From Prorocentrum cordatum (Eukaryota), in NCBI GenBank assembly GCA_963575745.1, contig CAUYUJ010000284.1, forward strand, positions 62,001 through 115,872: 53,872 nucleotides of DNA. Reading direction: 5' to 3'. Under the pieces are notes generated by a model, which searched no databases, had not been told where the DNA came from, and worked only from the letters and a program-made list of their open reading frames with translations. Of this stretch, positions 5,741-43,700 are shown one piece after another. The first letter of the stretch is position 1. Each line of letters opens with the position of its first letter. The translations under genes and the position numbers were made by a program.

Positions 5741-6100
5741 CGGGGGGAACGCAAGGGGGGGGGATAGCAAAGGGTAGGGTAGAGAATCAGCTCTCGCAGC
5801 TGATTATCCCGGCGCCAGCAGGCGCCCATGCATCGAGGAATGGGCCCTGCGGCGGGGCCGAAACCAGCTGCATGCAGCAGACTTCGCGACCCATGACGAT
5901 TAATAAATGACCGTGGGTCGTGTTCACGCGGCGGCGCCCGGGATGACGATTAGAAAAAACCGGCCGCGGGCTGGAAAACTATTTCTTAAATCGTTCTCCT
6001 CCAGTCAGAAACTTGTGCAGAAATACCAGAAAACTATGTTTTTAATCGTTCTCTCCCATTTTTTATTAATCGTCATCCCGCATTAATCCCCCCCTTTCCC
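5741..6100 (+). mobile_element. Family E element with a nested AT-rich TIR insert (about 5893-6076)
   Basis: An uninterrupted homologue lies at about 23464-23641. The insert is bounded by ATGACGATTAATAAA / TTTATTAATCGTCAT. Confidence 0.7.
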
Positions 6101-6107
6101 TATCGGC

Positions 6108-6314
6108 CCGATGTCTGTGGCGGCCCGCTGCACCCGTGCGCCTCTCCGCCCTCCCGGTGGCTGCGGCGAGCCCCCGAGCCCGGCCACCGCGGCGGCCGCA
6201 AACGGGTTCGTCGGCGCGGCCCACCAGGCCGACGAGTCCCCCTCCGCCTCCGCCAGGGCGCGCTCGGCGCTGCGGAAGGCGGCCCGCAGATGGTCGGGGC
6301 CAGTTCTCGTACCC
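6108..6314 (-). CDS. Gene A exon 6 (GPDHLRAAFRSAERALAEAEGDSSAWWAAPTNPF...AATDIG)
   Basis: This frame is not in the ORF track. It is GC3-rich and resembles exon 4 (LRAAVRRAELAVAE). A phase-2 GC donor at 6107 matches the phase-2 acceptor at 3435. The 5' boundary is uncertain. Confidence 0.65.
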
Positions 6315-6885: not shown

Positions 6886-8225
6886 ACCAGACCACCCCAG
6901 CCGAACCCGAAGACCCCGATTTCGGGTTGGGGGGGTACGGGCTTCATGTGTGCGTGTTTCCCATGTTTTTCGACCCCACCCCCCACTGGAAATGGAGGGC
7001 AAGTCGGGGCCCTCGGGTTGGGTTGGGGTGGTTTGGTGGGCGCTGAGACTGGCCCCCTGCCCCCGGAACACGCCCGTTGGCACCAGGAGATATGAGAACT
7101 GCCTCTCGGAAGAAGAACGAGCAGCACAGACATAAACTGTCGAAGGGCCGCGCGGATTTCTCGAACCCGCGCTGGAGACCCCCCTCCCTGGCGCGCGGAG
7201 TGCGCAGGGCGGCGCCGGAAGCGCCGCCGAGGGGGCCCCAGCGCAGATCCGCGAAATCCGCGCGGCCCTCCGATTTGGACGCCCGAAGTGGGCACGGAAA
7301 ACAAAAACGACAGCGGCCGCTTTTGGGCATGCGGCCTTCTGCTGCAGATGGACAACGTCCGCGGCGACACCGCTGGCGAGTCCTGCCCATTGTGAACCGG
7401 GAATGCCATCGGTCTTCGCACCATTGCTTCCCCTAGCGAACGTTCTCTTAATCGGCGCTTCGACATTGGGCGGAAGGGGGGGAGGGGTGGGGATCTGGCT
7501 CCGGACCTCTGCTTAATGCGACTGTTTGCAGCAGTGCGCCCTATGTGGGCGACTCCACCTGCTCGAAACGGGCGCCAAAAAACAGCCAAGATCTGCTCCC
7601 ATGGGGGGGTCAGGGGGCGCGATGCGAGGGCCCGCGCCGATCGGAAAAAACAAAGAGTAAGAAAACGACCACCAAGGCATCCCCTGAAAAGTTTATGCTT
7701 ACGCCGCACGTGTCTTCTTCGAAGCTGGTGCGCGCGCTCGAGCTCCGCCTTCTCGCCGCCCGGCACGGCGCGCTCGTCGCAGCGGGCGGCGGGCCGCAGA
7801 TGGCTGGCGGCGCGCACAGATCGGAGAAGCGCGAGGGGGGCGGCCCTTCTTTCGGGGAGACGTTGACCACCTACCAAACCACCCCAACCCAACCCGAAGA
7901 CCCGAATTTGACCCGAATTTCGGGTTGGGGGGGTAACGGGTTCCACGTGTTTTTTCGATGTTCCCCGACCCCCCCCCACTGGAAATGGAGGGCAAATCGT
8001 GGCCTTCGGGTTGGGTTGGGGTGGTTTGGTGGGCGGTGAGACGTGGGACCGGGGTTCGGGGGACTCGGGTGGTTCTGCCTGACTACCTACCAGACCACCC
8101 CAACCCAACCCGAAGACCTGAATTTCGGGTTGGGGGGGGGGGGGGCATGGGTTCCATGCGTGTTTTCTCCCTGTTCCAGGTCAAGTTGAGGCCTTCGGGT
8201 TGGGTTGGGGTGGATTGGTGGGTGG
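6886..8225 (+). mobile_element. Three family F foldback elements (about 6886-7040, 7871-8032, 8087-8222)
   Basis: TIRs CTACCARACCACCCCARCCSAACCCGAAG / CTTCGGGTTGGGTTGGGGTGGTTTGGTGG with a shared core. Gene A exon 5 lies between copies. Confidence 0.75.
7725..7803 (-). CDS. Gene A exon 5 (HLRPAARCDERAVPGGEKAELERAHQ)
   Basis: Nearly all codons are GC3 in this frame, and a CCAG| acceptor ends at 7804. The donor is uncertain. Confidence 0.6.
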
Positions 8226-8670: not shown

Positions 8671-9499
8671 TCTTAGAAGGCTTGGGGAGCTTCAGAGAAG
8701 GAACAGACCCTTCTTAGAAGCCCTCCTACGTGATGTATAAAACGATGTCTGAACGAACTCAAAATAATGTGTTTGGATGAATACCAAAAACCAAAGCCGC
8801 TGCTTATGAACCTGACAATATACATTCCTTTTCGAATATTCCTACAGCGGAACATCCCGGGTGACCCCGCCCACCCCCTACATAAATTCGGCCCTGGGCG
8901 TTCCGATCGGGAAGAAATTTGGATTTTCGGTTCCAGGCAAGACGGCCGCAGAAGCTCCCCAAACGGCACAAGACAGCCTCAAGAGGGCCCTGAGAGGCCC
9001 CAAGAAGGAGAACACAAACTTATAGGTCGAGCCTTATTCCCCAAAATGACCCCAAGAGCACCCCCGACGCCCCCGAGGCACCAACGAGGCCCAAGAGGCT
9101 CCCAAGGGGCCCCCGAGAAGCCCTCAAGAGGCCCCCAAGAAGGCCTCAAAGGCCCCCCATGATGTCCCCAAAAGCACTCCGAGAGGCCCCTGAGACGCAT
9201 CCCACGAGCCCCATCACATGCATCCAAGAAGCCCCTGAGCCACCAGATAACTTCCAAGATCGTCGCAAACACTCGTTCCTTCTGCGGGGTCAGTGGACTG
9301 GCTAAAGCCACTTGAGCGACACCATGCGAACCCCTTGCGCGAGGTCTACAAGCCATTCCGAGCTTTCTGAGCCCTACGAACCCTATGAGCTTGGGCCCCA
9401 AAGTCCCTATAAGCCATACCAGCCCTGCGAGCCCTATAAGATCTACGAACCCTCCGTTGCCCAATGGGGCCTAAGAGCCAGATGATCCCGAAGAACGTT

Positions 9500-9584
9500 G
9501 CCAGCATCATCACCATCACCATCCTCAAGGCTTCTACGTGCGTGTGAGTTCCATGTTCCCAAGGATCATCATCAGTATCATCAA

Positions 9585-9661
<77 letters not shown>

Positions 9662-9771
9662 ACAATAACAGCAGCATCAGCATCATAAACAGCAGCATCA
9701 GTATCATGATCATCATCAGCAGCATCATCAGCATCATCAGCATCATCATCAACGTCATCATCATACTCATC

Positions 9772-9802
<31 letters not shown>

Positions 9803-10045
9803 TCAGCAGCATGATCATCATCATCACTATCATCATCACCACCATCACCACCACCACCACCATCATCATCATCATCGGCAGCATCATCATCATCATCAGC
9901 AGCAGCATCATAATCAGCAGCAGCAGCATCATCATCATCATCATCAGCATCATCATGATCAGCAGCAGCATCAGCATCGTCATCATCAGCAGCATCATCA
10001 CCGCCACCACCACCACCACCGCAACCACCACCATTATCATCATAC
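9500..10045. repeat. Compound (CAT/CAG/CAC)n array
   Basis: Direct inspection. Confidence 0.95.
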
Positions 10046-10904
10046 AGCCAAAGCGCATCGCAGTACTGGCGTGTACCGGTCGCGGCGAGCCTCTCTGGCG
10101 CCACGCGATCAAGATTTGCCGATACTGGCGGTGCGCAGAGGGGGTAGGGGGAGGGGGGAAGACTTCTAGGAGAAGGCTGTTTCTTAGAAGGCGCGGGCCT
10201 CACATCTGCAGACAAGGCCTGCGCCTTCTAAGAAGCAGCCTCCTTCTGAGAAGCCTCGCCCCCTCCCCCCGTACCTTGAGGGCAACGAGAAGGGGGACTG
10301 GAAGGGGGCACCCTCCCCTGTGCCCATCCCCCCTATCGCTGCCCCTGATGCCCCCCTCTGCGCGTGGCCGAGAAGCAAAGCGAGCCGATGCTCTCTCTCA
10401 AAGGGGCCCAGTTACACACAAATGAATAGACACGAATCCCAGGATTCACCATATGTTCCCATATGTTATCGGTCTTCGTCTTCCCCCCCACTCCCCGTGC
10501 TTTCTTACATTTTCCAGGGAATCGATAACTCATTGTGTCTATGTGCTTCTTCCCCTCGTCGTCGTGTTTGTTTCCATACGGGGCCCTCGGAAGTCTCGAC
10601 CCATTCCCCTGGACCAGTTGTCCATCCTGAGTCGTTTTTCGAGGGTCCTGGGGCCCGGCGAGGTCCCCCAACCTCCGTCTTGATTCTTTCGATGCGTTGG
10701 ATTACTAGGCACTGCTACTCCCCAGACCTCTCCTGGGAAGCGTTCTGACCAGGATTTCGAGGCGAATCTAGCGGTGGCGACGAGTGCCGCACAGGAGGCC
10801 CAAAAAGGTGGTGGGGGGGAGGGAATCAACAAACCCAAAAGAAAAAAATCCTGGCGAAGGACCCAACCAAGTGCAATTGTGAATAACGCTTTGTGGGTGC
10901 CGCT

Positions 10905-11870
10905 TTCGGTGGGGCTCCATATGCGGCCACGAAAGGCGTGCCACGAAACGCTGTCCTGGGCGTACGGGACGCATGCGGGCGGTAGCACTGGGGCCTTCGG
11001 TGGAGCTCCCTATGGGGCCACGAAACGCTGTCCTGGGCCCTCGGCGACGAAACGTGTGAGGGGTGTGCCGAAATGGGTGCGGTGCCGCCATGCCAACGCA
11101 GCCACTGGGGCCCTCGGTGGAGCTCCCTACGGGGCCACGAAACGTGTGAGGGGTGTGCCGAAATGGGTGCGGTGCCGCCATGCCAACGCAGCCACTGGGG
11201 CCCTCGGTGGAGCTCCCTATGGGGCCACGAAACGTGTGAGGGGTGTGCCGAAATGGGTGCGGTGCCGCCATGCCAACGCAGCCACTGGGGCCCTCGGTGG
11301 AGCTCCCTATGGGGCCACGAACGTGTGAGGGGTGTGCCGAAATGGGCGCGGTGCCGCCATGCCAACGCAGCCACTGGGGCCCTCGGTGGAGCTCCCTATG
11401 GGGCCACGAAACGTGTGAGGGGTGTGCCGAAATGGGTGCGGTGCCGCCATGCCAACGCAGCCACTGGGGCCCTCGGTGGAGCTCCCTATGGGGCCACGAA
11501 ACGTGTGAGGGGTGTGCCGAAATGGGTGCGGTGCCGCCATGCCAACGCAGCCACTGGGGCCCTCGGTGGAGCTCCCTATGGGGCCACGAAACGTGTGAGG
11601 GGTGTGCCGAAATGGTGCGGTGCCGCCATGCCAACGCAGCCACTGGGGCCTCGGTGGAGCTCCCTATGGGGCCACGAAACGTGTGAGGGGTGTGCCGAAA
11701 TGGGTGCGGTGCCGCCATGCCAACGCAGCCACTGGGGCCCTCGGTGGAGCTCCCTATGGGGCCACGAAACGTGTGAGGGGTGTGCCGAAATGGGTGCGGT
11801 GCCGCCATGCCAACGCAGCCACTGGGGCCCTCGGTGGAGCTCCCTATGGGGCCACGAAACGTGTGAGGGG
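10905..11870. repeat. 90-bp tandem repeat, about 9 near-identical copies plus degenerate leading units
   Basis: GGGGCCACGA recurs at 11131, 11221 and 11311 and continues with this period. Confidence 0.95.
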
Positions 11871-12230
11871 TTTGCTGTGATGGTGGGAGGAGGGAGGGGG
11901 CAGAGGGAGGATGGAAGGAAAGAGTGAACGCGGGGCGCTGTCTCTTCAAAACGAGGACCCAACACCACAGGATGGTTGGGAAAAAAGGGTGGAGGGTGGC
12001 GGTATCGGTACCCTGTCCTCCTCTGAAAAATGACCTTTATCTGTGGCCGTGTTTTTTAGACGAGCGCGGTCCGCTACTCGCAAAGTAACTACTCGCAAAT
12101 GGCCTGGATCCGCCGCGGGGGATCTACGATGAATCTCATCGGAGCGAAAATCTCTGTTCTTTGCACGTGTGCGAGTAGTGGAACGCGCCTGGTGATTTTT
12201 GCTTCCCTCCCCGAGTATTGTGCGCGCCGC

Positions 12231-12389
12231 CGGATCGTCCTCCGCCACGGCCAGCTCGGCGCGGCGCACGGCGGCCCGCAGCCGCCGCGCGCGCTCCCCG
12301 CTGGGCTCGCCGCGCAGCTGCTCCAGCTCCGCCTCCGCGCGGCGCAGCGCGAGCAGGTCCCGCCGCTGCCGCCGCCTCTCGGCGGCCAC
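12231..12389 (-). CDS. Gene A exon 4 (VAAERRRQRRDLLALRRAEAELEQLRGE...AEDDP)
   Basis: Coiled-coil-like with high GC3. The GAG|GT acceptor is supplied by a MITE target-site duplication. The exact donor is uncertain by a few nt. Confidence 0.7.
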
Positions 12390-12392
12390 CTC

Positions 12393-12812
12393 TCGGCGGC
12401 GAGCGACGGGGGGGAGGGAGCAGCAGAAGAGGAAGAAAAAGCCATGCAAACATCAACTTTTGGCGCTCCGCGCGGACTGCTTGGCTCTGCGCCTGGGCCC
12501 CCCCGGCGGCGCCTCCGGCGCCGCCACTTGGTGCGCGGAGCGTGCCAGGGAGTGGGGCCCAGCGCGAATCCAAGAAATCCGCGCGGAGCGCCAAAAGTGT
12601 ATGTCTATGTGGTTTGTTCTTCTTCTAGGGAGGTGAGAAGGGGCGGGTCTTCTCAGAAGGCTCTGAATTTGCTGGGGCCTTCTGAGAAGTTTTCGACGCC
12701 TTCCCCGAGAACACAAAGAAACACTTCTCACAAGGTGTGAGGGGGCTGAGAAGTGTCCCTTCCTTCTGAGAGGGCCTTCTCCTTCTCACTTACCCCCCTC
12801 GCTCGCCGCCGA
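12393..12812 (+). mobile_element. Family B MITE with a perfect 5-bp TSD (ACCTC) and a nested family G element (about 12455-12610)
   Basis: ACCTC at 12388-12392 and 12813-12817. The inner TIR is ACTTTTGGCGCTCCGCGCGGA / TCCGCGCGGAGCGCCAAAAGT. Confidence 0.85.
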
Positions 12813-13068
12813 ACCTCTGCATGGGATCCAGGGGGACACTAATATCCGCTTCCCGCATGTTCCCATATCTTCCTGGGAGTCGACGATGATCTGCGCCTGT
12901 GTGCCTTATATTCCCTCCTGGACCTCCAGCAGCGCTTCCCTGCGCCGCGCAGAATCCCCCCCTATGCTTGCACACTTCTCCTGGAACTTCGTCCTCCCCG
13001 TCCACTTCCAACACCTTCCTGAGCATCGACGACTCCCTGCGACGTTGTGCCTGCTCCCCCTCCCGAAC

Positions 13069-13116
13069 CTCCAGCAGCGCCTCCCTGCGGCGCGCCTCCA
13101 GCGGCTGGGCGATGGC
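13069..13116 (-). CDS. Gene A exon 3 (AIAQPLEARRREALLE)
   Basis: 48 nt, phase 0/0, with a GAG|G acceptor and a GAG|GT donor. It joins exons 2 and 4 in frame. Confidence 0.7.
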
Positions 13117-14116
13117 CTCGGGGCTCTCTTGCGATGTCTGCCCGAGAGGGAGTGCCAGAGAGAGGAGTGCCGGCGCGCGTGGCGCACAAGGGGTCCTGCG
13201 CAGGGGGTCCGCATCCATCGTGCCTGCTCTGCGCCTCCTCAAAGGCCAACCTAACGGCGATGCTGCTCAACGGTGATTCTGAGAACCCAAGTGTAGGAAG
13301 CCACGGACCGCACTTTCCCACATCTCCTCGATGCGAACGTATCGAACGAGAACGACACAGAACATTGTAGGAAAGCGCGGGCCACGCGTTCCCACAATAC
13401 CGAAACCTGCATCGCCATTACCTACATCGCCGTTAGCGTGTCGACGGCTCTTCCCCCTTTTCCTGCATGCGCACGCTCGCGCGGATCCAATCCCAAGGAC
13501 ATTCACAAGACCCCCGCACAAGGCGCACAGTGTTCCCCGCAGAAGGCCTACAAGACTCGCGCGCGTACTTTTTCTACTCAGAGTAATTAGCTGGGCCAGC
13601 AATTCAGAGGAGAAACAGCAGGTGGCGACATCCGAACTCTGCACCCACCAACCATCGATTCCCCTGAATCGATGGGGGGCGGGGGTGGGGTTCGAATTTC
13701 GCCGCGTGTTCAACACATCCCGACCCCACCCCCCGCCGCCCATCGAGCTGCCTGAATCGTTCATCGGCGAGGGTAAGGGTTCGGATGTCGCCGCCGAAAC
13801 CCAGAGGACAACCGCCACCGAAAACCCAGCGAAGGGGCCCACCCCTGGGCGGTGGCACGCCCGAGCGTCGTCCTGTACTGGGAGACGCTCGGGCGTGCCC
13901 CCGATGGGCTCTCGGTGGCGAGGGTCCCCACGTCTCCCTCTGAACCACGGCCCGCTCACTGTTCCAGCGCTTGCGGAGAGCCACCTGCTCTGTAGCGGGG
14001 CTGCAGTTGGGGTAGGCAGAGGGGTGCGCTGTGGCTGCTCGGCCTCGCCGCGAAGCCGCGGATAGGCTGGTGCGTCCGCGGCCATCCGCGCAGCCTCAGC
14101 ACCGCAGCAATGAAAG

Positions 14117-14279
14117 AGGGGCCCAGGAACACGCAAATAAATAGACACGACTCCCAGGATTCCCCCTCACTTTCCCGCATTCTCTGGGTTTTCGTCTTAC
14201 CCCCCCCCCACTTCCCCTATTCTCCTACATCTTCCTGGGAGTCGACGATACATGGCGTCTGTGTGTTTTTTCCCTCCCG
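14117..14279 (+). repeat. Family C dispersed repeat (about 160 bp)
   Basis: AGGGGCCCAGGA...TTCCTGGGAGTCGACGAT...TGTGTTTTTTCCCTCC. Copies lie at about 10402-10557, 12830-12920, 12950-13064, 16452-16608, 41950-42113 and 42523-42595. Confidence 0.75.
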
Positions 14280-14495
14280 AGCAGCTGCTGGCTCGAGCTC
14301 CGAGCCGAGCAGGTCCCGAAACCGGTCCCGTGCACGCAGCCGCGCGGGGGCACGGGCGGGTAAAACAAGCTGGGCCCCCCCTGCACCGTTTCCCCGGGGG
14401 GGAACGCAAGGCTCGAGCTTGGGGAACTCGGGCTGGCTGGGAAGGGCTCATACGCCATATATATATATATATATATATTATGTGTGTACGCTCCG

Positions 14496-14635
14496 GGCTG
14501 GACCTAAGCGGTGTTTGTCGTTTTCGTTGTGTTGTTCGCCATTCCTCGTTTTGCCTTCGCTTCGCCTCGAATGCAAAACAAGACTGAAAGCAAAGCGGCC
14601 CACGAGGTGGCCAAAACACCGCTCAGGTCCAGCCC
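14496..14635 (+). mobile_element. Family H MITE
   Basis: TIR GGGCTGGACCTAAGCGGTGTTT / AAACACCGCTCAGGTCCAGCCC. A second copy lies at about 42161-42300. Confidence 0.7.
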
Positions 14636-14951
14636 TGCACCACGTCAGCAGGTGGGCCAGGGAGCTTGGTGTATAGACGCCCCAGCTGCCCGACCTGCGG
14701 GAGGCTGGAGCGTCTGGACACCGATTGCCTTCGCCGAACTCCCTGCCCCCCTGGCCGACCAGACGATGTGGTGTATGCATCGAGCCCCTCCGATTGGCCT
14801 GGCGGGGCTGTCGAAAAAATGGCAGGGCCTTGTCCGAACATCGACGCTGAAACTCTCGATGCAGACATCTCACGGAACCTGGACCGTCAACGTGCGCGCT
14901 GGGACCGCCGAACCGCTTCGAAAGAGCCCCATGTTTCCCCGATGAGAGGGC

Positions 14952-15269
14952 CTCGGAGGCGGACACCTGGGCCTGGACGGAGGAGTTCAGCCGGTTGATC
15001 TCCAGGAGCTCCTGCTCGGACAGCGCCTGCAGCTCCTCCAGAAACTGCAGCTCGTCCAGGCAGAGCGACCGCTCCCCAGTCACGCCCGCCTTCTCGAGGC
15101 TCGTGGTCCGCCTCCTCCGCAGGAGCTCGGCCTGGTACCTGGCGCGCTGGAGCTGGCTCTCGCACGCCTGCTTCTGCTCCGACGCGAGCTGGTGCTCCGC
15201 GGTGGCGAACAGGACCTCCTCGTGCAGCTGGCTGCACTGCTGCCGCAAGACCCGGAGCTCGTCGTCCAT
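14952..15269 (-). CDS. Gene A exon 2, coiled-coil (MDDELRVLRQQCSQLHEE...QVSASE)
   Basis: Heptad-like L/E/Q-rich sequence with high GC3. It follows CCAAG| and ends at a GAG|GC donor. Confidence 0.8.
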
Positions 15270-15275
15270 CTTGGT

Positions 15276-15475
15276 TCGGCGGCGAGCGAGGGGAGGAAAT
15301 GAGAAGGGGCGGGCCTTCTCAGACGGCGGCGGGACTTCTCAGAAGCCCTCGCGCCTTCTGAGGAGCGTTTGGCGGCTTCGGGGGAGGCTCAGACAACTCC
15401 TCAGAAGGCCGGGGGACTTCCGAGCCTTCTGCGAAAGCCCTCTCCTTCTCCCTCCCCCCCTGGGCTCACCGCCGA
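15276..15475 (-). mobile_element. Family B MITE between gene A exons 1 and 2
   Basis: TIRs are present, with flanks TTGGT and TTCGT. The internal sequence is inverted relative to the 204-401 copy. Confidence 0.85.
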
Positions 15476-15935: not shown

Positions 15936-16627
15936 ATAAGCACATCTGCGCATGTGCCTGTGAATGAACATGTACTACGCGCGTTGCGTGGAGGAGAGCA
16001 TGCACGTGTACAGCCGGCCCGTATCAGAAGGATGCGCGATGAGGATGCAAGGTCCTTGGAAGGCCATGTCGAAGCTTTTCGAGCGCGGTGCGGCCGACGA
16101 AAGCGGCGAAGGACGGACCGAGGAGGTGAGGATGCAAGGGTGCCCTTCGGATTGGTTGCCCTCCTTGCTGTGGGTTGACCGCACGTGCGCGTGTGCGCGT
16201 GCGCGTGCGCGTGCGCGCGTGCGCGTGCGCCAAGGCACAGCCCCCGCGCACGCACAGCCCCGCCGGTCGCCCCACGCGCGGCCCACTCGGGCGCGCGCGG
16301 CCGCCGGCACCCTGCCCTTCCAGGGACAAGATCCGCGGCGGCCGGGCCTCGGGCCAGGGGTGCAAAGCTGACACGCGCGCGCTCGCGCCACCCTCGACCC
16401 GCTGGGGCCGCGTGCGGAGCTCCCCGTGGGGCACGATCGCCACGAGAGTGAAGGGGCCCCAGGACACACAAATAGATACACACAAATAGAAGCATTCCCT
16501 ATATTTTCCCATATTTTCTGGATTTCTGTCTTCCCCCCCACTTCCCGTAGTTTCCCATATTTTCTGAGGAATCGAGGATTAATTGTGTCTGTGTTTTTTC
16601 CTCTCCTGAGATAGGTGCCCCGACGTA

Positions 16628-19061: not shown

Positions 19062-19284
19062 CTCGGCCGCGCGGTCGGCGCGTCGGCCGCTGGGACGGGC
19101 TCTCGGACGTCGCCACCGCCGCCGTCGTCGCCACCGTCGTCGCCGCCAACGCAGTCGACGTCGCCGCCGCCGTCGTCATCGTTGTCCCCGTCGCCTCAAC
19201 CTGAGCTCCTCCAGCTCAACCTGACCCTCAGACGGCCTCTGCAGGCCCCATCTTGTCGTCCTGCTGCTGCTGCGTTCCTCGTCC

Positions 19285-20420
19285 ACCTCCTCCTCCTCCT
19301 CCTCCTCTTCCTCCTCCTCCTCCTCCTCCTCCTCCTCCTCCTCCCCCTCCACCACCTCTCCTTCCAACCCTCCCCCTACCCCTCCCCCTCCCCCTTCCCT
19401 CCTCCTCCTCCTCCTCCTCCTCCTCCTCCTCCTCCTCCTCCTCCTCCCCCTCCTCCTCGATCTCTTCTTCCTCTCCTGCTCCTGCTCCTGCTCCTGCTCC
19501 TCCTCCTCCTCCTCCTCCTCCTCCTCCTCCTCCTCCTCCTCCTCCTCCTCCTCCTCCTCCTCCTCCTCCTCCTCCTCCTCCTCCTCCTCCTCCTCCTCCT
19601 CCTCCTCCTCCTCCCCCTCCCCCTCCCCCTCCTCCTCCTCCTCCTCCTCCTCCTCCTCCTCCTCCTCCTCCTCCTCGTCTTCTTCTTCATATTATTACTA
19701 GTATGTTTCTTCTTAATATTATTAGTATTATTATAAGTATTAGTATTATTATTACTACTATTATTATTGTTGTTAATAGTATTATTATTATTAATAATAT
19801 TAATATGATTATTATTAGTATTATTATTAGTATTATTATTATTCGTATTAGTATTGTTACTATTATTATTATTAATATGATTACTACTATTATTATAATT
19901 GTTATTATTATTGTTATTATTATTATTATTCGTTTCTCCTTCCGTTATTAGTATTAGTATTAGTACTATTCTTCCTATTAGTTTTCCGATTACTATTATT
20001 CTTCTTAGTATTATGATTAGTCTTCTTAGTATCATTATTACTCTTCTTACTATCATCAGTAGTAGTATCCTTCTTATCCTTCGTAGCATTATTAGTATTA
20101 CTCATATTATTAGTATTCTTATTATGATTATTCTTATTTTTTATTTGTATTATTAGTGTTATTCGTATTATTAATATTACCAATAGTATTATTATTGTTA
20201 TTATTATTATTATTATTAATATTATTATTATTATGATTATTATTCGTCTTCTTATTATTATTCGTGTTATTATTAATATTCCTCCTCCTCCTCGTCCTCC
20301 TGCTCCTCCCCTCCTCCTCCTCCTCCTCCTCCTCCTCCTCCACATCCTTGCTCTCGTTCCCCTTTTCCTCCCCCTCCCCCTCCTCCTCTTCCTCCTCCCC
20401 CTCCTCCTCCTCCTCCTCCT

Positions 20421-20451
<31 letters not shown>

Positions 20452-22310
20452 AGCATCATCATGATCATCATCATCATCCTCATCCTCATCATCATCATCA
20501 TCAGCATCATCATCCTCATCATCATCAGCATCAGCATCATGATCATCATCAACAACATCAACATCAACATCACCATCAACATCATCAGCATCCGCATCAG
20601 CCTCACCAGCAGCATCAGCATCATCGGCGTCGTCGTCATCATCAGCATCAGCAGCATCATCATCATCAGTAGCAGCAGCGGCATCATCATCATCAACATT
20701 AGCTTCATCATCATCATCAGCATCATCATCATCATCATCAGCATCGCCAGTCATTATCACCATAGTCAGGATCAGCATCATCATCATCGTCGTCATCATC
20801 AGCATCAGCCTCAGCATCAGCATCACCAACATCACCATCATCATCATCATCAGTCGTCAGCATCAGCATCATCAGCATCATCACCATCATCATCATCATT
20901 TTCATCAGCAGCATCATCATAATAACCACCACCACAATCATCAACACCATCAGCATCAGCATCAGCATCACCATCATCATCAGCATCAGGATCATCATGT
21001 GAATCAGCATCATCATCAGCAGCAGCATCAGCAGTATAATTAAGCATCATTACCATCATCAGCATCATCATCATCATCAGCATCATCATCAACAACATCA
21101 GCATCAGCATCATCATCAGCAGCATCGTCAGCATCAACACCATCGCAAGCATCATCATCATCAGCATCAACATCATCATCAGCAGCAGCATCGTAATCAG
21201 CATCATCAGCATCAGAATCATCATCATCAGCATCAGCAACATCATCAGCACCATCATCATCAGCATCACCAGCATCACCATCATCAGCAGCAACATCACC
21301 GGCATCAGCATCATCATCATCGTCATCAGCATCACCATCATCATCAGCATCATCATCAGCAGCATCAGCATCAGCATCAGCATCAGCATAATTATCATCG
21401 TCAGCATCACCATCATCATCACCATCAGCATCATCATCATGATCATCCTCATCATCATTATCACAACCACCACCAGCAGAAGCAGCAGCAGTAGTATAAG
21501 CATGTTCACCATCGTCATCAGTCATCAGCATCATCACAACCACCAGCCTCAGCATGTCATTGTCATCGTTATCATCAGCAGCAGAAGCAGTAGCAGCAGA
21601 ATCATCATCACCATCGTCATCATCATCACCAGCATAATCATCGTCATCAACATCACCATCATCATCACAATCATTATCATCGCCATCGTCCACATCAGCA
21701 ACACCATCAGCATCAGCATCAGCATCACCGTCATCAGCAGCATCAGCATCATCAGCATCATCACCATCCTCAGCATCCTCATCATCATCACCAGTATCTT
21801 CATCATCAGCATCAGCTTCACCTGCATCATCATTACCTTCATCATCAACATCATCATCAACATCAGCATCATCAGCATCATCGTCAGCATGATCAGCATA
21901 ATCATCAGCATCAGAATCAGCATCATCATCAGCATCATCATCGTTGTCGTCGTTGCCCCCACCATCATCACCATCGTCATCATAATCATCATCAGCAGCA
22001 GCTGCAGCATCATCAACACCATCATCATCACCATGTTCGATCATCACCACCCCATCCACCAGCATCATCATCAGCAGCATCACCATCGGCATCATCATCA
22101 GCATCATCATCAGCATCACAATCGTCATCATCACCATCATCATCAGCATCATCATCAACCTTATCGTCATCACCATTATCATCATCATCGTCATCAGCAG
22201 CATCATCATCACCGTCACCATCACCATCATCAGCGTCAGCGTCAGCATAGTCGTTGTCATCGCCATCGTCGTCACCGTCGCCAGCGTCATCGACATCGTC
22301 GGCGTCATCA
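19285..22310. repeat. 3-kb compound triplet array: (CCT)n-(ATT)n-(CCT)n-(CAT/CAG)n
   Basis: Direct inspection. Confidence 0.95.
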
Positions 22311-22324
22311 GCGGCACCCGAATC

Positions 22325-25587: not shown

Positions 25588-26687
25588 CAGCAGGAGTCCC
25601 CGCGCCTCCGCTGCCCCTGCGCGAAGCGCGCAGCCCCCCTCGAGAGGCGAGCGGCCCCTGGGCCCACAAGTCCCGGCGGGAGCCCCGCTGCGAGCGCAGC
25701 CGCCCTCCCCCGGCGGCGCGCACCAGGGGGGGGGGGGGGCAGGGGGAGAAGGGGGGGGGGGGGGGCTTCTTCAGAGGAGGCTGCCTCTTGGGATTCTGAG
25801 AAGCAGCCCCCTTCTGAGAGACCTTCTAATTGTGAGGCGCCGGCCCAACACCTAAAGACAAGGCCCGTGCCTCCTGAGAAGCAGGGGTGCTTCTGAGAAG
25901 CCTCTCCCCTTCCCCCTACCCCCCCCCTTCTGCGCGTGGCTGACTCCCTCCTTAGAGCTACCAGGGATGCAACAGGGAGCTACAAGGAGTGCACCAAGGA
26001 GCTACAAGGAGCTACAAGGAATGCAACAAGGAATGCAGCAAGAAATGCATCATTGAGGGAGTGCCGAGGGACAACCCCGCCTTGAAAAAGAACCACCATG
26101 CGTTCGTGACACTGCTGGGTAACTGGCTGGACGACTGTGGTCATACATGTGAGGAAGTCTCGAACGAGAACGCCCCGTTTTGAAAACGCGCCCGCATCCA
26201 TCCGCGCAACTCTTGGGAACTTTTACGACGAACGTGCGCGGCGTCACGGCGAGAGCCACATCGTGAAAACGAAAGGCCTTCCATCCGCGGAACAGGTGAA
26301 GATGATCGAGACGAGAGTGTGCGCGGCGTTGCCATCCATCCGCGTAACGGATAAACCTTGTAGCCTTCGGGATAATATGGAAGGAGGTTCATATTAGGAC
26401 ACAGAGAGCTCGGAAGTCGTCGGGCCTTCCGAGCAGCTCTCTCAGCCTTTGAAGACACACGAGCCTCCTCGAAAGTCGCAGGGGCTTCTGAGCAGCCCCG
26501 CCGCCTTCTGAGGAGGTCCTCTCCTTCTCACCTCCCCCCCCTCGCTCGCCGCCGAAAGGTGGCGGAGGAGGGCGGGGGAAGCGCCGTGCAAGCAAGCCTG
26601 CCTGCGCCTGAAGAGACACAGCCCCCTTAGAGGGCGGAGGAGGGGGTGGGAGCCGGAGGCCGAGTGCGGCGCTGTCGGGCGAGGTGC

Positions 26688-37372: not shown

Positions 37373-38480
37373 CTCGGCGGGGGGGCGGCTCGGAGGGCGA
37401 GGGCGGAGGCCGAAGCTTCTCGTCGGAGAGGGAGGGAGGAGGAGGAGGAGGAGGAGGAGGAGGAGGAGGAGGAGGAGGGAGGAGGAGGAGGAGGAGGAGG
37501 AAGAGGAGGAGGGAGGAGGAGGAGGAGGAGGAGGAGGAAGAGGAGGGAGGAGGAGGGGCGACCGGTTGTTACTGTGGCCCGTTGGGTGTTAGTGTGGCCC
37601 GTTGGGTGTTAGTGTGGCCCGTCGCGCGGCGGGATGGGAGTTACTGTGGCCCGCGCAGGCCGCTCAATGAAAAGTAATGCGTAAAGGTATCCCATGGCAG
37701 ATCTGGAGAGATTCGCAACCCTTAAGGGAATGCACTCCCGCGCAAGCAAAAGTGGCCACAGTAACTCCCACCTGGAACCAACGTGGTAGTAGTGCTGTGT
37801 TAGTGGTGTGGTGGTCGCCGTGCTGTGTTAGTGGTGTGGTGTTGGTAATGTTGTGTTAGTGGTGTGGTGTTGGTAGTGGCTGGTTGTGCTGTATGCTGTG
37901 TTAGTGGTGTGGTGTTGGTAGTGGTGTGCTGTGTTAGTGGTGTGGTGTTGGTAGTGTTGTGTTAGTGGTGTGGTGTTGGTAGTGTTGTTGAGTTGGTAGT
38001 AGGTAGTAGTGTTGTGGTAGTGGCAGTGGTGCTGTGGTAGTGGTGTTGTGGTAGCGGTGTTGTAGTGTTGTGGTTGTGATATTGTGGTAGCGGTGTTGTG
38101 GTGTTGTGGTAGCGGTGTTGTGGTGTTGTGGTACTGGTATTGTGGTAGTGGTGCTGTAGTGTGGTAGTACTATGGTGCTGTAGTGTTGGTGCTAGGTAGT
38201 ACCATTCATAGGGAGTACTAGTCCTACGGAGTACTAGCCGCAAGGAGTGCTAGCCCCAGGGAGTACCAGTCCTAGGAATTACTACCCCTAGGGCGTACTC
38301 GTCCAAGGGAGTACTCGTCCTAGGGAGTACTCGCACTACGGAGCACCAGCCCTAGGGACTACAAGTCCTAGGAAGTGTTAGTCCGAGCGAGTGCCAGGAA
38401 GTACTGGCACTAGGGAGTGCTAGCACTAGGAAGTACTGGCGCTAGGGAGTGCTAGCCCCAGGGCGCTAGGGACGACGAGA

Positions 38481-39590
<1,110 letters not shown>

Positions 39591-40552
39591 ATAGTTCGGA
39601 GAGCCCAAGAGGCTCTTCGGAGAGCCCAAGAAGCGCTTCGGATGCCCCAAGAAGCTCTTCGGAGGTCCCACGAGGCTCTTCGGAGAGGCCAAGAGGCTCT
39701 TAGGCGGCTGCAAGAAGGTCTTCGGAGGCTCCAAGAGGCTCTTCGGAGAGCACCAGAGGCTCTTCCGAGAGGCTCTTCGGTGGGGGGGGGTGGCGGAGCC
39801 TTTTTGGACCCCACCCCACCCCTTCACCGTACTCGATAATTAAAACACTCCGGAGGACCCCTGGCCATACTAACACCCACCGGGCCGCAGTAACAACCAA
39901 CGGGCCGCAGTAACACCTTATCTCAGGAGGAGGGAGGAGGAGGAGGAGGGAGGAGGAGGAGGAGGGAGGGAGGAGGGAGGGAGGAGGAGGGAGGAGGTGG
40001 GAGGGAGGGAGGGAGTGAGGGAGGGAGGAGGAAGGAGGAGGAGAGGAGGAGGAGGAAGAGGAGGGAGGGAGGAGGAGGAGGAGGAGGAGAGGAAGGGGGA
40101 GGAGGAGGAGGAGGACGGAGGGAGGAGGAAGAGGAGGAAGAGGCGGAGGGAGGAGGGGAGGAGGAAGGAGGCGGAGGAGGAAGGAGGAATGAGGAGGAGG
40201 CGGATGAGGATGAGGAGAGGATCGGAGGCGGGAGAGGAGGAGGAAGGGAGGAGGGAGGGAGGTAAGGGATGGGGAGGGAGGGAGGGAGGAGGGAGGAGGA
40301 GGAGGAGGAGGAGGAGGAGGAGGAGGAGGAGAAGGAGGGAGGGAGAAAGAGGAGGAGAAGGAGGAGGGGTACTGGCGCCTGGGGCCAGGGTAGCACAATA
40401 GCCCAGGGCGCCACGACGTCGCCGAGCCAGAGGCCAGGGCTTGGGGCTGACGTCGAACCCCAGCCACTGTCCCGACGTCGACCTGATGGCGATCCCTCCA
40501 AAAGCCTACCCTGACGCCGAAACCCTCGGACCTGCCCCAACGCCAAGACTTA

Positions 40553-40709: not shown

Positions 40710-43700
40710 TAGGCCAAAAGAACCCTCCAAGAAGCTTCTGCCCGAGTGAAGACAGCAGTCTCACCACCAACGACAGGGGGCAAGGGGGTGCCCCCCCCCC
40801 CTCGAGGAGTAAGGGGATGAGGAGGAAGGGGAGGTAGGAGGAGGAGAAGGAGGAGGCTAGAAGGAAGAAGCGCGGCGCTGGGGGAGGGCGGAGGAGGGAG
40901 GAGGCGGATGAGGGAGGAAGGACGGAGGATGAGGAGGAGGAGGAGGAGGGAGGAGGGAGTGAGGCGGAGGAGGGGAGGAGGGAGGATGGAGGAGGGAAAG
41001 GTAGGGGAGGAATGGGAGTAGGGGGAGGGGAGGAGAGGAGGAGGGGCGGGAAGGAGGGTTTCGCCTTCGCCTCAGCTCGGGCCCCGCGACCCTCGCGGGA
41101 CCCGGCAGCCGGGACCGAGCCGGCAAGAGAAAGAGCGGCAGGAAAAAAATGCGGGCCTCGCCATCGCTCGGACGTCCGTTCCCCCTGTGCTTTTTTCAGT
41201 TTCGTGCGTGGTGTTTTTGCCAAATGATCAAGGATGCTCCTCGATGGTCCTCGCCGAAGGAAGAATGCGATGCCAAGGGCCTGGGGCCCCGGCCGCGGTT
41301 CCCTGCGATGCGGCAACTCTCTGAGGGGCACCGACAGGAAAGACTGGCACAGGGGGGGAGGCATCGACCTGGAATCGGCGACGCATCGCCGATGGATCGG
41401 CGAAAGACCCACGACAGCGAAGCCGCAGCTTCCTGGGCGGGTGGGGCTATCGGGCCCTCTCGGCGACGAATGGACGCTTGGGGGTCGATCCATCTCCCCC
41501 TGTGCCTCTCTCCCCCCCTCGTTGCCCCCGAGTTCCTCGTGACGTCAGGACTCAGGGAAGTGGCCGCGATTGCTCGGGGTGCTCGGCACCCGAGGGGGCC
41601 CCCCGTTGAGATCCCCAGACCCCCGACACACGCTGGAAGGACACCGACGATCGCGCTCCGCGGAGCGCGGAGCGCGATCGTCTTCGCGCTTTCGCGACGC
41701 CCCCCCCAGCCCCCGCCCACCCACCCCCGCGCTTGCGCGCCGCCCCCCCAGCCCCCCCCCCCTCGAACAGCACGAGGGGCTCGTGCCTCGCTCTCTGAAG
41801 TCGCCCGGACCGCGAAGCGCGGTTCGCAACCAGCCTCGCACCCTCGTGGTGGCCCCAGAGGCAGCAGGGCTGACCAGCAGACACGCAGGGCAGCCCGGTG
41901 AGGGCAACTTGTGGACGACGTGGTGGCTTCTCCTCCCTCGACAGATAGAAAGGCACCCAGGAAGATATAAACAAAGAGGCACCAATTCCAGGATGCCCAT
42001 AGAAAGTTTCTACATGTTCTGGGTGTTCGTTTTCCGCTCAAGTTCGCATCTTTCGCATGTTGCCATGGGAAATATACGCTCTTGCGTGTGTCTGTGTCTG
42101 CTTTTTCCTCCTGAAGGTACGTGAGTGATGCCCAGCAGCAGAGCCTGACCACAACTGACCAGGGCTGAACCTAAACGGTGTTTTTCGTTTTCGTTGTGTT
42201 TTCATGTTCCCTCGCTTTTGCCTCGAATCCGCCCTTGCCGCAAAACGAAGTCGAAACGAAAACGGCCCACGACATCGCCAAAAACACAGCGGCCCTGAAA
42301 CTGACCGCGGCCGCCCGCTGCTGGGCAGACGACGCACTGCCCCAGGCGGACGGCGCCCGCGGCGGCACACCGACAGCAAGCCCTGCCCAGGACCGGAGTA
42401 CACCCGCCGGGGGCCACAGAGCGGACGCATCGCGCCGCACCGCCAGGTGCACAATGAGCCGACGCGTCGGCGATGCGCCGGCGACGGCGGCATCGAGGCG
42501 AGCGGGCTCTGGAGATCACTGAAGGGGCCCTGGGACACACAATTTTTTCTGGGGAACCGACGATTAATTGTGTCGGTGTGTTTCTTCCCCTCCTGAATCA
42601 CGCCGCATCGCCGCTTCATCGGCGGCGCGGCACGATGCCCCTGGCCCCACGTGCTCTGGCCCCGTCTGGGACTCGCCGTCGCTCGGGCGTCCACTCCCTG
42701 TGTTTTCTTCGGTTTCGTGCGTGGCTTTTTCGCCAGATGATCAAGGACGCTCCTCGACTGTCCTCGCCGAAGGGAAAGTGCACACGTCCGAGCGATGCCG
42801 GAGGGGAGGCCTGAACATGTGGGCAGGAACCGATGCCGGCACTCGTCCACGTTCTGCCCGCCCGCAGGGCGGATCGTCGCACCGACAGGACACGCCGCCG
42901 AGGCTGGCGCGGAGGCGGCCACACGTGCCAACGCTGCAGCGGAGGCCAGCCCAGAGGAGACCTTCCCCGAGAAGCCCACCCCTGAGACGCCAGGGCTGTC
43001 ATTGATTTTTGGATCGGGAACGTCACTCTTTCCATAGCAAAACCATCGAAACCCAAGAAACCCAGGGCACTCTGGAGGCAAGCAGGGTCTCCACTGTACC
43101 ACTGCAGATCAGATGGTGCTCAGAATTTGAAGCACGTCTGCAGCCAGGGGAATCCCAGCGGGGCCGATATCAGGGGCGAAGCGCGCCGTCCGTGAACGAG
43201 CCCCCAGAGCCTGATACGTGCAGGGCTCCTCGCTCAAGATCGTGCCGACTGGACCCGCAGTGGTAGGCCCCCGAGGGGGGAGGGGCGGGCGACGACAGGG
43301 GACCGAAAGACAGCACAAGTATATAAACGTTCGGAGGTCCGCGAGGGGCGCGCCTGCGGCGGCGCCGGGGGCGCGGCCAGGGAGCCCCGCGCCGACCGGC
43401 GCCGATGCGAGAGCTACACGCGGAGCTCCGAGAAACTGCGCATGGTGATGCCGTGGCTCTGCTCTTCGCGGCCACTGGGGGAGGGGGGGCGGGGAGGGGG
43501 AGGCGGAGGCGGCGACGGCGCTCCACAAGAGTCCGATGACGATCGAACGCGGGAGGAATCTGGGGGTCCCCTCACTTGAGCAGCTCTACGCCACGAAGGT
43601 ATATACACATACACCCATCCGACGAATCGTGCACGTACCTTCCGAGAGGGCGGCGGTGTGTAAGATCGCTTGCTTCAAGTGGTGATTTATGCACCGCCAC

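What the first reader, a model, noticed from the sequence alone, without database searches (positions are those of the whole stretch)
12388..13071. Intron built as a stack of three GT...AG modules joined by GAG|GT junctions (candidate introner-built, recursively spliced intron)
Seen: ACCTC (GAG|GT on the coding strand) occurs at the donor (13067), at two internal module boundaries (12922 and 12813) and at the acceptor (12388). These divide the 679-nt intron into segments of 145, 109 and 425 nt, each starting GT and ending AG. The 425-nt segment is exactly a TIR element plus one copy of its perfect 5-bp TSD. The other two are family C repeat pieces. Known: introner transposons can take their splice sites from TSDs, and recursive splicing uses AG|GT ratchet points. 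Inference: repeated insertion at one proto-splice site builds a long intron that can be removed piecewise.
Basis: partly seen in the sequence, partly recalled or inferred. Interest (0 to 1): 0.85.

Follow-up and report, generated by a model that had tools for sequence, protein, structure and literature searches.

The report
Transposon-stacked intron in a dinoflagellate gene
A real 679-base intron in a Prorocentrum cordatum gene was built from small transposons that landed on the same five-base site plus a local duplication, leaving internal splice-like joints whose stepwise use remains untested.

Summary
GAGGT occurs four times on the minus strand, at 13067, 12922, 12813 and 12388. This cuts 13068..12390 into GT...AG pieces of 145, 109 and 425 nt. 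The intron is real. Contigs from three runs of three studies join 13069|12389 with no mismatch, and the NCBI protein model of Prorocentrum cordatum uses the same junction.

The "three insertions" reading is only partly right:
- The 425-nt piece is a family B MITE (12393-12812, 37-nt TIR, perfect TSD GAGGT) carrying a nested palindromic MITE (12421-12627).
- The 109-nt piece is a deletion copy of family C whose ends abut GAGGT on both sides.
- The 145-nt piece is not an insertion. It is a tandem duplication that copied the last 27 nt of the exon (25 of 27 identical), the donor and the 5' part of C.

Recursive splicing could not be tested. TSD-derived splice sites are already described for dinoflagellate introners. 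The new twist is that two MITE families reused the same pentamer.

A second family B copy in the same transcript (15276-15475) is removed with one TSD copy at non-canonical borders, and the public gene model misses this.

The parts
13069..13116 (-). Upstream exon (48 nt, ...AIAQPLEARRREALLE). Its 5' border is ambiguous within an 8-nt boundary repeat.
   Evidence: Contig pieces and joints in X2, X8 and X9. Border enumeration. Matches P0001 and P0002.
12390..13068 (-). The 679-nt GT...AG intron, flanked by GAG|GT on both sides (5-nt ambiguity).
   Evidence: Joint 12387->13067 skips 679, 'CT..AC cut +2', both=5, one contig in each of X2, X8 and X9. for borders. P0001 reads ...EALLE|VAAER....
12951..13066 (-). 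Family C element, 5' part (about 116 nt), starting directly after the donor GT.
   Evidence: Alignment A1 with three other C copies. Sequences.
12924..12950 (-). 27-nt copy of the upstream exon's last 27 nt (pseudo-exon end), followed by a copy of the donor. This is the breakpoint of a 145-nt tandem duplication.
   Evidence: D1 repeat 12913-12950 vs 13058-13095, 89%, spacing 145. 25 of 27 identical.
12818..12921 (-). Family C element, internally deleted copy (104 nt), flanked by GAGGT (12922-12926) and GAGGT (12813-12817).
   Evidence: 5' part aligned in A1. 3' end resembles the C 3' terminus: end-to-end score reached by 2 of 5000 shuffles and 5 of 5000 random 25-mers. A stricter local test was not significant, 327 of 2000.
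12393..12812 (-). Family B MITE (420 nt) with 37-nt TIR and termini TCGG...CCGA. Its perfect 5-bp TSD GAGGT lies at 12813-12817 and 12388-12392.
   Evidence: Inverted repeat I2. TIR motif found 7 times in the window vs 0.22 expected. Flanks. Alignment A2.
12421..12627 (.). Nested palindromic MITE (family P, 207 nt) inside B, flanked by GGGAG/GGGAG.
   Evidence: I1 arms of 94 nt, 71%. The insert is absent from B1 and B3. Borders. DNA contigs of other copies skip 12414-12633. Related copies at 7109-7265 and 799-887.
12233..12389 (-). Downstream exon (VAAERRRQRRDLLALRR...).
   Evidence: Contig pieces 12233-12387 with 0 other letters in X2, X8 and X9. P0001 and P0002 mapping.
13117..14951 (-). Neighbouring 1835-nt intron, best read as GC...AG, with an 8-nt identical boundary repeat CCGAGGCC.
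   Evidence: Joint 13113->14949, both=8. Enumeration. No TIR at its ends.
15276..15475 (-). Second family B copy (B3, 200 nt) inside the coding sequence of the same gene. It is removed together with one TSD copy (15271-15275), 205 nt in all, at non-canonical borders.
   Evidence: Joint 15270->15476 skips 205, both=2, on the same contigs. Possible borders are TC..AA, AT..CA or AA..CC. The restored frame matches P0002 and P0003.

Best explanation
This is an ordinary working GT-AG intron of a conserved coiled-coil gene of Prorocentrum cordatum. Its body was assembled by mobile-element activity around one pentamer, GAGGT, which spans codons Glu-Val. Most likely a family C MITE inserted at GAGGT and duplicated it, so that GT and AG both came from the TSD. 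A family B MITE then inserted into one copy of that same pentamer and duplicated it again; the order of C and B could be reversed. A 145-bp tandem duplication copied the last 27 nt of the exon, the donor and the 5' part of C. A palindromic MITE (P) landed inside B. The four GAG|GT sites are therefore the original site, two TSD copies and one duplicated donor. Splicing joins 13069 to 12389 and restores the uninterrupted coding sequence exactly. Shown here: the junction, the elements, their TSDs and the duplication. Inferred: the order of events and the origin of the intron by insertion. Removal may occur in one step or in several, and either route gives the same mRNA. The B hairpin is predicted to bring the internal site at 12815 next to the final acceptor.
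For: Junction: one contig in each of three runs from three studies skips exactly 12390-13068 with 0 mismatches in the flanking pieces. The NCBI model P0001 and homologs P0002 and P0003 read ...LLE|VAAER... without an indel. B: the TIR motif occurs 7 times against 0.22 expected, its TSD is a perfect 5/5, and the same termini are seen in B1 and B3. C: its 5' terminus (TC[AG]GGAGGG), defined by copies C14, C16 and C42, starts right after GAGGT in both tandem units. C42 has a perfect 5-bp TSD, GTGAT. The seg2 tail matches the C 3' end, with 2 of 5000 shuffles as good. Duplication: 145-nt spacing and a 38-nt repeat at 89%; the exon-derived part is 25 of 27 identical. Fold: the B arms pair; MFE -331.2 kcal/mol, z -8.3 against 20 shuffles. 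Precedent: a 5-nt NAGGH TSD supplying both splice sites is described for Polarella glacialis introner class 12 (preprint text).
Against: The C 3'-end match was tested post hoc, and a stricter local alignment test was not significant: 327 of 2000 shuffles were as good. A GAGGT direct repeat around C is partly forced by the dinoflagellate AG|G splice consensus, so it is weaker TSD evidence than for B. Copy 1 of C holds about 55 nt that copy 2 lacks, so the duplication model needs a later deletion in copy 2. Exact reuse of one pentamer by two families is unexplained: the other TSDs of B (AAAAG/AAAAA, TTGGT/TTCGT) and of C (GTGAT, CTATC/CTCTC) share no motif. No ortholog DNA was available to show that the intron is absent elsewhere. 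The runs with the spliced contigs have no recorded library kind; I infer they are RNA from the contig depth of 18-27 in runs of about 100 million letters.
Confidence: 0.62

Rival explanations
1. Three separate element insertions at one proto-splice site built the intron, and it is removed piecewise by recursive splicing at the internal AG|GT points at 12924|12923 and 12815|12814.
For: All three joints are GAG|GT. After splicing to 12815 the regenerated donor GAG|GTTCGG equals the original donor GAG|GTTCGG over -3..+6. The site at 12815 would be the former acceptor if C came first, and its upstream context is intact. The two modules C and B do look like insertions into the same pentamer.
Against: The 145-nt module carries a 27-nt copy of the exon end, which a 5-bp-TSD insertion cannot produce. 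The site at 12924 is preceded by purine-rich exon-derived sequence.
Confidence: 0.1
2. Only family B is an insertion. The upstream 254 nt is an older intron that happens to contain family C debris and an internal duplication. B landed on its 3' splice site, and the GAGGT around 'C' reflects the splice consensus, not a TSD.
For: The strict local test of the seg2 tail against C 3' ends is not significant, 327 of 2000. AG|G at both intron ends is usual in dinoflagellates: 79.7% AGG acceptors in P. cordatum (Table 2 passage). The neighbouring 1835-nt intron also has an 8-nt boundary repeat without TIRs.
Against: The C 5' terminus abuts the donor GT to the base in both units. The end-to-end test of the 3' terminus was reached by 2 of 5000 shuffles. 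Another deletion copy of C (C42) has the same architecture with a perfect TSD.
Confidence: 0.2
3. Family B elements are removed by a border-defining mechanism guided by the TIR hairpin and TSD rather than by GT-AG recognition, as proposed for Amoebophrya introners. The 679-nt intron would then be cleared in two different steps: hairpin-guided removal of B plus one TSD, and normal splicing of the remaining 254 nt.
For: In the same contigs the B3 copy plus one TSD copy (205 nt) is missing although no GT/GC/GA...AG border fits. This restores ...IQDEVTK|MDDELR..., which matches P0002 (..AEVTRMDDELR..) and P0003. Both B copies fold into long hairpins: z -6.7 against 200 shuffles for B3 and for B2. 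Amoebophrya introners with 8-20-nt inverted repeats and 3-5-nt direct repeats at non-canonical borders are described (passages).
Against: This rests on one case only. Reverse transcriptase can skip a stable hairpin between short direct repeats and mimic this joint (recalled knowledge, not tested). B2 itself has canonical GT...AG, so nothing here requires a special mechanism. A very recent paralog without B3 cannot be strictly excluded.
Confidence: 0.25

Closest known systems
Dinoflagellate introners (Introner-Like Elements) of Polarella glacialis and Symbiodinium, especially class 12 (5-nt TSD NAGGH/NNAGG) and classes 13-14 (AGGH TSD). Roy et al., bioRxiv 10.1101/2020.10.14.339549; whole text parts 1-2 read.
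   Same: Non-autonomous TIR elements with short TSDs. Both splice sites are recruited from the TSD, and GAGGT fits NAGGH. Removal restores the pre-insertion coding sequence.
   Different: Here two different families plus a tandem duplication are concatenated in one intron, sharing one pentamer. The species is P. cordatum. Presence or absence in orthologs is not shown. The parts read do not mention stacked or serial insertions at one TSD.
Introner elements reported for P. cordatum (Dougan et al., Genome Biol 2023, PMC10666404; passages and supplementary note).
   Same: Same organism. Introns with inverted repeats and 3-5-nt direct repeats at their ends, found in 2.4% of its introns.
   Different: Their screen required the repeats within 30 bases of each intron end and gene models limited to GT/GC/GA-AG. 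It would therefore miss this compound intron, whose left TIR arm lies 254 nt inside, and the non-canonical B3 intron.
Amoebophrya non-canonical introner elements (Farhat et al., BMC Biol 2021, PMC7789003; passages).
   Same: Inverted repeats forming a hairpin, and 3-5-nt direct repeats overlapping the borders. B3 behaves this way, with no canonical dinucleotides.
   Different: The intron under study has canonical GT-AG. Amoebophrya is a syndinean parasite, and no family-specific inverted-repeat motif was found there, whereas B has a defined TIR.
Recursive splicing at ratchet points or zero-length exons in Drosophila and vertebrate long introns (recalled from memory; no paper on it was read here).
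   Same: Internal AG|GT sites that regenerate a donor after the first ligation.
   Different: Known cases lie in very long introns with conserved ratchet sites preceded by a pyrimidine tract. Here the intron is 679 nt, the sites are insertion or duplication scars, and no intermediates are shown.
Stwintrons of Hypoxylaceae fungi (abstracts in the listings).
   Same: Nested spliceosomal introns that need consecutive splicing reactions. Some are repeated, introner-like families.
   Different: In a stwintron the internal intron interrupts a splice signal of the outer one, so two steps are obligatory. Here the modules are end to end and one-step removal is possible.

Membership tests
Introner (intron-generating non-autonomous DNA transposon) | Multi-copy family of similar elements | tested here: met
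   Family B: 7 TIR matches in the window vs 0.22 expected, giving 3 complete and 2 partial copies. The word depth of a DNA run is in the thousands over B and P against 1-7 over unique parts. Family C: 4 copies outside the intron.
Introner (intron-generating non-autonomous DNA transposon) | TIRs and target site duplication | tested here: met
   B2: 37-nt TIR at 84% and TSD GAGGT 5/5. B1 and B3 TSDs are 4/5. C42 TSD GTGAT is 5/5.
Introner (intron-generating non-autonomous DNA transposon) | Splice sites supplied by the element and/or TSD, so that element plus one TSD copy is removed from the mRNA | tested here: met
   The mature junction 13069|12389 equals the sequence with all inserts and extra GAGGT copies removed. 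B3 plus one TSD copy is absent from the same contigs.
Introner (intron-generating non-autonomous DNA transposon) | The insertion created the intron (absent at the orthologous position in relatives) | not testable with these tools
   Only homologous proteins P0002 and P0003 were found. No genome of this or a related species is held.
Recursively spliced intron | Internal juxtaposed acceptor and donor (AG|GT) | tested here: met
   GAG|GT at 12924|12923 and at 12815|12814.
Recursively spliced intron | Splicing intermediates: exon joined to the internal site, segment lariats, or a saw-tooth nascent RNA profile | not testable with these tools
   Only assembled contigs could be laid, once. 15 joints were listed and 27 were not shown. 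Contigs drop rare forms.
Amoebophrya-type non-canonical introner (applies to B3, 15271-15475) | Borders other than GT/GC/GA...AG, with an inverted repeat near the ends and a 3-5-nt direct repeat across the borders | tested here: met
   Possible borders are TC..AA, AT..CA or AA..CC. The hairpin has z -6.7. The direct repeat is ACGAA/ACCAA. The caveat of a reverse-transcription artefact was not tested.

The most novel reading that the evidence does not exclude
In P. cordatum, a core dinoflagellate, family B MITEs are cut out of pre-mRNA at borders set by their TIR hairpin and TSD, whatever the dinucleotides. TSD reuse lets such elements pile up end to end. The 679-nt intron would then be cleared stepwise, module by module, through regenerated GAG|GT joints, combining canonical and structure-guided removal. 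Many P. cordatum gene models restricted to GT/GC/GA-AG would be wrong in the way P0001's N-terminus is.
Probability: 0.22. Interest if true: 0.75.

Novelty: new variant of a known kind. Interest (0 to 1): 0.5.

Why it matters
It gives a concrete, transcript-verified example of how introner insertion sites can be reused. Because the TSD itself carries AG|GT, each new insertion into it leaves a joint that is both an acceptor and a donor, so an intron can grow by modules without changing the mRNA. Such compound introns escape screens that look for repeats only at intron ends. The non-canonical removal of a sister copy in the same transcript suggests that annotation pipelines limited to GT/GC/GA-AG mis-model some P. 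cordatum genes. It also suggests that hairpin-plus-direct-repeat introns, so far described for Amoebophrya, may exist in core dinoflagellates.

Tried and rejected
- Whole genome: none is held, so genome-wide TSD statistics for B and C were impossible.
- Sequencing runs: no RNA holder was listed; 22 runs were listed, all with shares of 0.12 or less.
- Intermediates: among the 15 joints listed, none joins 13069 to 12923 or to 12814, or 12815 to 12389. A further 27 joints were not shown, and contigs drop rare forms, so this says nothing either way.
None extends beyond 28 nt of B, so these are chance GC-rich matches with no family B copies.
- Pfam on 27 long ORFs of the window: no family above its cut-off. 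Two weak sub-threshold hits (Mucin, SSB_1) were ignored.
- Earlier-findings look-ups by place, sequence and words: nothing.
- TIR search at the ends of the 1835-nt intron: not better than shuffles, 249 of 1000.
- Strict local alignment of the seg2 tail to C 3' ends: not significant, 327 of 2000. Only the end-to-end test was.
- Second protein search with the first exon: it found only P0002 and no transcript-derived P. cordatum protein spanning the B3 junction.
- B-like 3' half at 26402-26555, flanked by GAGGT...AAGGT on the plus strand: considered as a further TSD but dropped from the counts, because its left end is not a B TIR.
- Canonical alternatives for B3: GA...AG would be 209 nt, and the model's GC...AG is 203 nt. 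Both are rejected because the contigs skip 205 nt.

Full report
**1. Observation**

On the minus strand, GAGGT occurs at 13067-13071, 12922-12926, 12813-12817 and 12388-12392. The stretch 13068..12390 is 679 nt. It divides into 145, 109 and 425 nt, and each piece begins GT and ends AG. The window has 49 minus-strand GAGGT, so 0.62 are expected in 684 nt. Four are seen, Poisson P = 0.004.

**2. Organism and gene**

No genome is held for the window. The translation of 14952-15269 (minus strand) is 100% identical to P0001. NCBI names this protein "unnamed protein product, partial [Prorocentrum cordatum]". Two unnamed transcript-derived homologs were also found: P0002 (75% identity) and P0003 (57%). 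tblastn places the gene on the minus strand from about 15846 to about 1006. The window's G+C of about 0.6 agrees with the 59.7% reported for this genome (passage). Pfam finds no domain in 27 long ORFs, including this gene's exons. The protein looks like a coiled coil of unknown function.

**3. The intron is real**

No run is recorded as RNA, and the word shares are small. When laid, however, runs X2, X8 and X9 (three studies) each contain one contig of 1359-1673 nt on the minus strand, with no mismatches. Each contig covers 15270-14949, about 13113-13067 and 12387-12233, and skips 205, 1835 and 679 nt.

- The 679-nt skip is 12390-13068 with GT...AG ends and 5 nt of ambiguity, which is the GAGGT repeat.
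- Contig depth of 18-27 in runs of about 100 million letters cannot come from DNA of a 4.75-Gb genome, so I take these contigs as cDNA. This is an inference.
- P0001 uses the same junction (...EALLE|VAAER...), and P0002 and P0003 align across it without an indel.

**4. Anatomy of the 425-nt module**

- 12393-12812 is a MITE (family B) with termini TCGG...CCGA and a 37-nt TIR at 84%.
- The 18-nt terminus occurs 7 times in the window against 0.22 expected. This gives three complete copies (B1 204-401, B2 here, B3 15276-15475) and two partial ones.
- B2's flanks are a perfect 5-bp TSD: ACCTC on the plus strand, which is GAGGT on the coding strand. B1 and B3 TSDs are 4/5 (AAAAG/AAAAA, TTGGT/TTCGT).
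- Compared with B1 and B3, B2 carries a 207-nt insert at 12421-12627. This is itself a long-armed palindromic MITE (family P) flanked by GGGAG/GGGAG, with relatives at 7109-7265 and 799-887.
- DNA contigs of other B copies skip this insert (X1 joint 12413->12634).
- GAGGT fits the NAGGH 5-nt TSD from which class 12 introners of Polarella glacialis take both splice sites (preprint text).

**5. The 109-nt module**

Family C is a roughly 165-nt dispersed element (copies at 14281-14117, 16610-16451, 10557-10401 and 42596-42520).

- Its 5' terminus, TC[AG]GGAGGG, begins directly after GAGGT at 12921.
- The last 25 nt before the next GAGGT resemble the C 3' terminus. End to end, the score is reached by 2 of 5000 shuffles and 5 of 5000 random genomic 25-mers. 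That test was chosen after seeing the similarity, and a stricter local test is not significant (327 of 2000).
- The copy at 42596-42520 is a comparable internal-deletion derivative with a perfect 5-bp TSD, GTGAT.

I therefore read 12921-12818 as a deleted C copy flanked by GAGGT on both sides. The pentamer at 12813-12817 would then be both the right TSD of C and the left TSD of B.

**6. The 145-nt module is a duplication, not an insertion**

- It starts with the 5' 116 nt of family C (13066-12951).
- It ends with 27 nt (12950-12924) that repeat the last 27 nt of the upstream exon (25 of 27 identical), followed by GT and again the C 5' end.
- The period is exactly 145 nt. The intronic parts of the two units are about 70% alike.
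- A transposon with a 5-bp TSD cannot bring a copy of 27 exon bases. A tandem duplication of [exon end + donor + C 5' part] can.
- Copy 2 must later have lost about 55-60 nt of C that copy 1 retains.

The GAG|GT at 12924|12923 is therefore a duplicated donor, preceded by purine-rich exon-like sequence.

**7. How it works**

Shown: the mRNA joins 13069 to 12389 and so restores ...CTGGAG|GTGGCC... (Leu-Glu|Val-Ala).

Inferred: the site was a proto-splice site within codons. C and B both used it, order unknown, and the duplication and the P insertion followed.

The folded intron (MFE -331.2 kcal/mol, z -8.3 against 20 shuffles) pairs the two B arms. This places 12815 next to the final acceptor at 12390.

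Stepwise removal is plausible on sequence grounds. Splicing to 12815 would regenerate GAG|GTTCGG, identical to the original donor over -3..+6. Removing B first would regenerate the former acceptor. Every route gives the same mRNA, however, and no data here distinguish them. I put measurable stepwise removal at roughly 0.2-0.3.

**8. A sister copy removed at non-canonical borders**

- The same three contigs skip 205 nt, from 15271 to 15475. This is B3 (200 nt) plus one copy of its imperfect TSD (ACGAA/ACCAA on the coding strand).
- The only border pairs compatible with the joint are TC..AA, AT..CA or AA..CC.
- The joint restores ...RRIQDEVTK|MDDELRVL.... This matches P0002 (...RIQAEVTRMDDELRVL...) and P0003, and the first exon in this frame is 67% identical to P0002 (E = 1e-32).
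- The NCBI model instead uses a GC...AG pair 203 nt apart and reads the first exon in another, arginine-rich frame.
- B3 folds into a long hairpin (z -6.7 against 200 shuffles).

This is the pattern described for Amoebophrya introners (passages). Rivals are reverse-transcriptase skipping of the hairpin between direct repeats (recalled knowledge, untested) or a very recent paralog without B3. Against a dead gene: B3's arms and TSD have diverged, yet the downstream exons remain open and conserved.

**9. Comparison with what is known**

- Introners with TSD-derived splice sites are established in dinoflagellates.
- P. cordatum is reported to have inverted-repeat/direct-repeat "introner elements" in 2.4% of its introns. 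That screen required repeats within 30 bases of the intron ends and canonical or GC/GA donors.
- A search for "introner" plus "recursive splicing" found 5 papers, of which 4 were listed. By title and abstract start, none describes introner stacks.
- Gozashti et al. 2022 contains none of the words nested, tandem, recursive or "same site".
- The parts of Roy et al. that I read do not mention serial insertion at one TSD. I did not read the published Current Biology version or its supplements, nor parts 3-4 of the preprint, which may bear on this.

**10. Verdict**

It is an introner-built compound intron: two insertions into one pentamer, one nested insertion and one tandem duplication. This is a modest new variant of a known kind. 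Recursion is unproven. The most interesting lead is the non-canonical, TSD-precise removal of the sister copy B3.

Noticed in passing
window 15271-15475 (minus strand): Family B copy B3 plus one TSD copy (205 nt) is absent from the spliced contigs, although no GT/GC/GA...AG border fits. Its removal restores a frame conserved in homologs. The NCBI model P0001 uses a 203-nt GC...AG intron and so reads the first exon (15846-15476) in a wrong frame.
   Followed up: partly
window 13117-14951 (minus strand): An 1835-nt intron, best read as GC...AG, has an identical 8-nt boundary repeat CCGAGGCC and no TIR at its ends. It contains a full family C copy (14281-14117).
   Followed up: partly
window 12233 and 6098-6305, 7732-7833: The contig's exon runs to 12233, 4 nt beyond the junction implied by P0001. 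A second exon-D-like segment at 6298-6098 matches homolog P0002 better, in a frame different from the one P0001 uses there. The 3' half of the public gene model is probably also wrong.
   Followed up: no
window 11043-11875: A 90-nt tandem repeat, 9.3 copies at 98% identity, lies just downstream of the exon at 12233-12389.
   Followed up: no
window 12421-12627, 7109-7265, 799-887: Family P: a palindromic MITE with long arms (94 nt, 71%). The copy nested in B2 is flanked by GGGAG/GGGAG. With it, three MITE families here (B, C, P) have 5-bp flanking repeats.
   Followed up: partly
window 42520-42596, 16451-16610, 14117-14281, 10401-10557: All family C copies seen, including the two in the intron, lie in minus-strand orientation. 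The copy at 42520-42596 is an internal-deletion copy with a perfect TSD, GTGAT.
   Followed up: partly
window 26384-26560 (plus strand): A B-like 3' half (26402-26555) lies between GAGGT (26384) and AAGGT (26556) on the plus strand. This may be another AG|GT-flanked module, but its left end is not a B TIR.
   Followed up: no
window 9349-10227, 19246-22318, 38478-39595: Long low-complexity or simple-repeat tracts (an Asp/Ile-rich GAT-type repeat, and strongly GC-skewed low-GC blocks) interrupt the otherwise roughly 60% G+C sequence.
   Followed up: no
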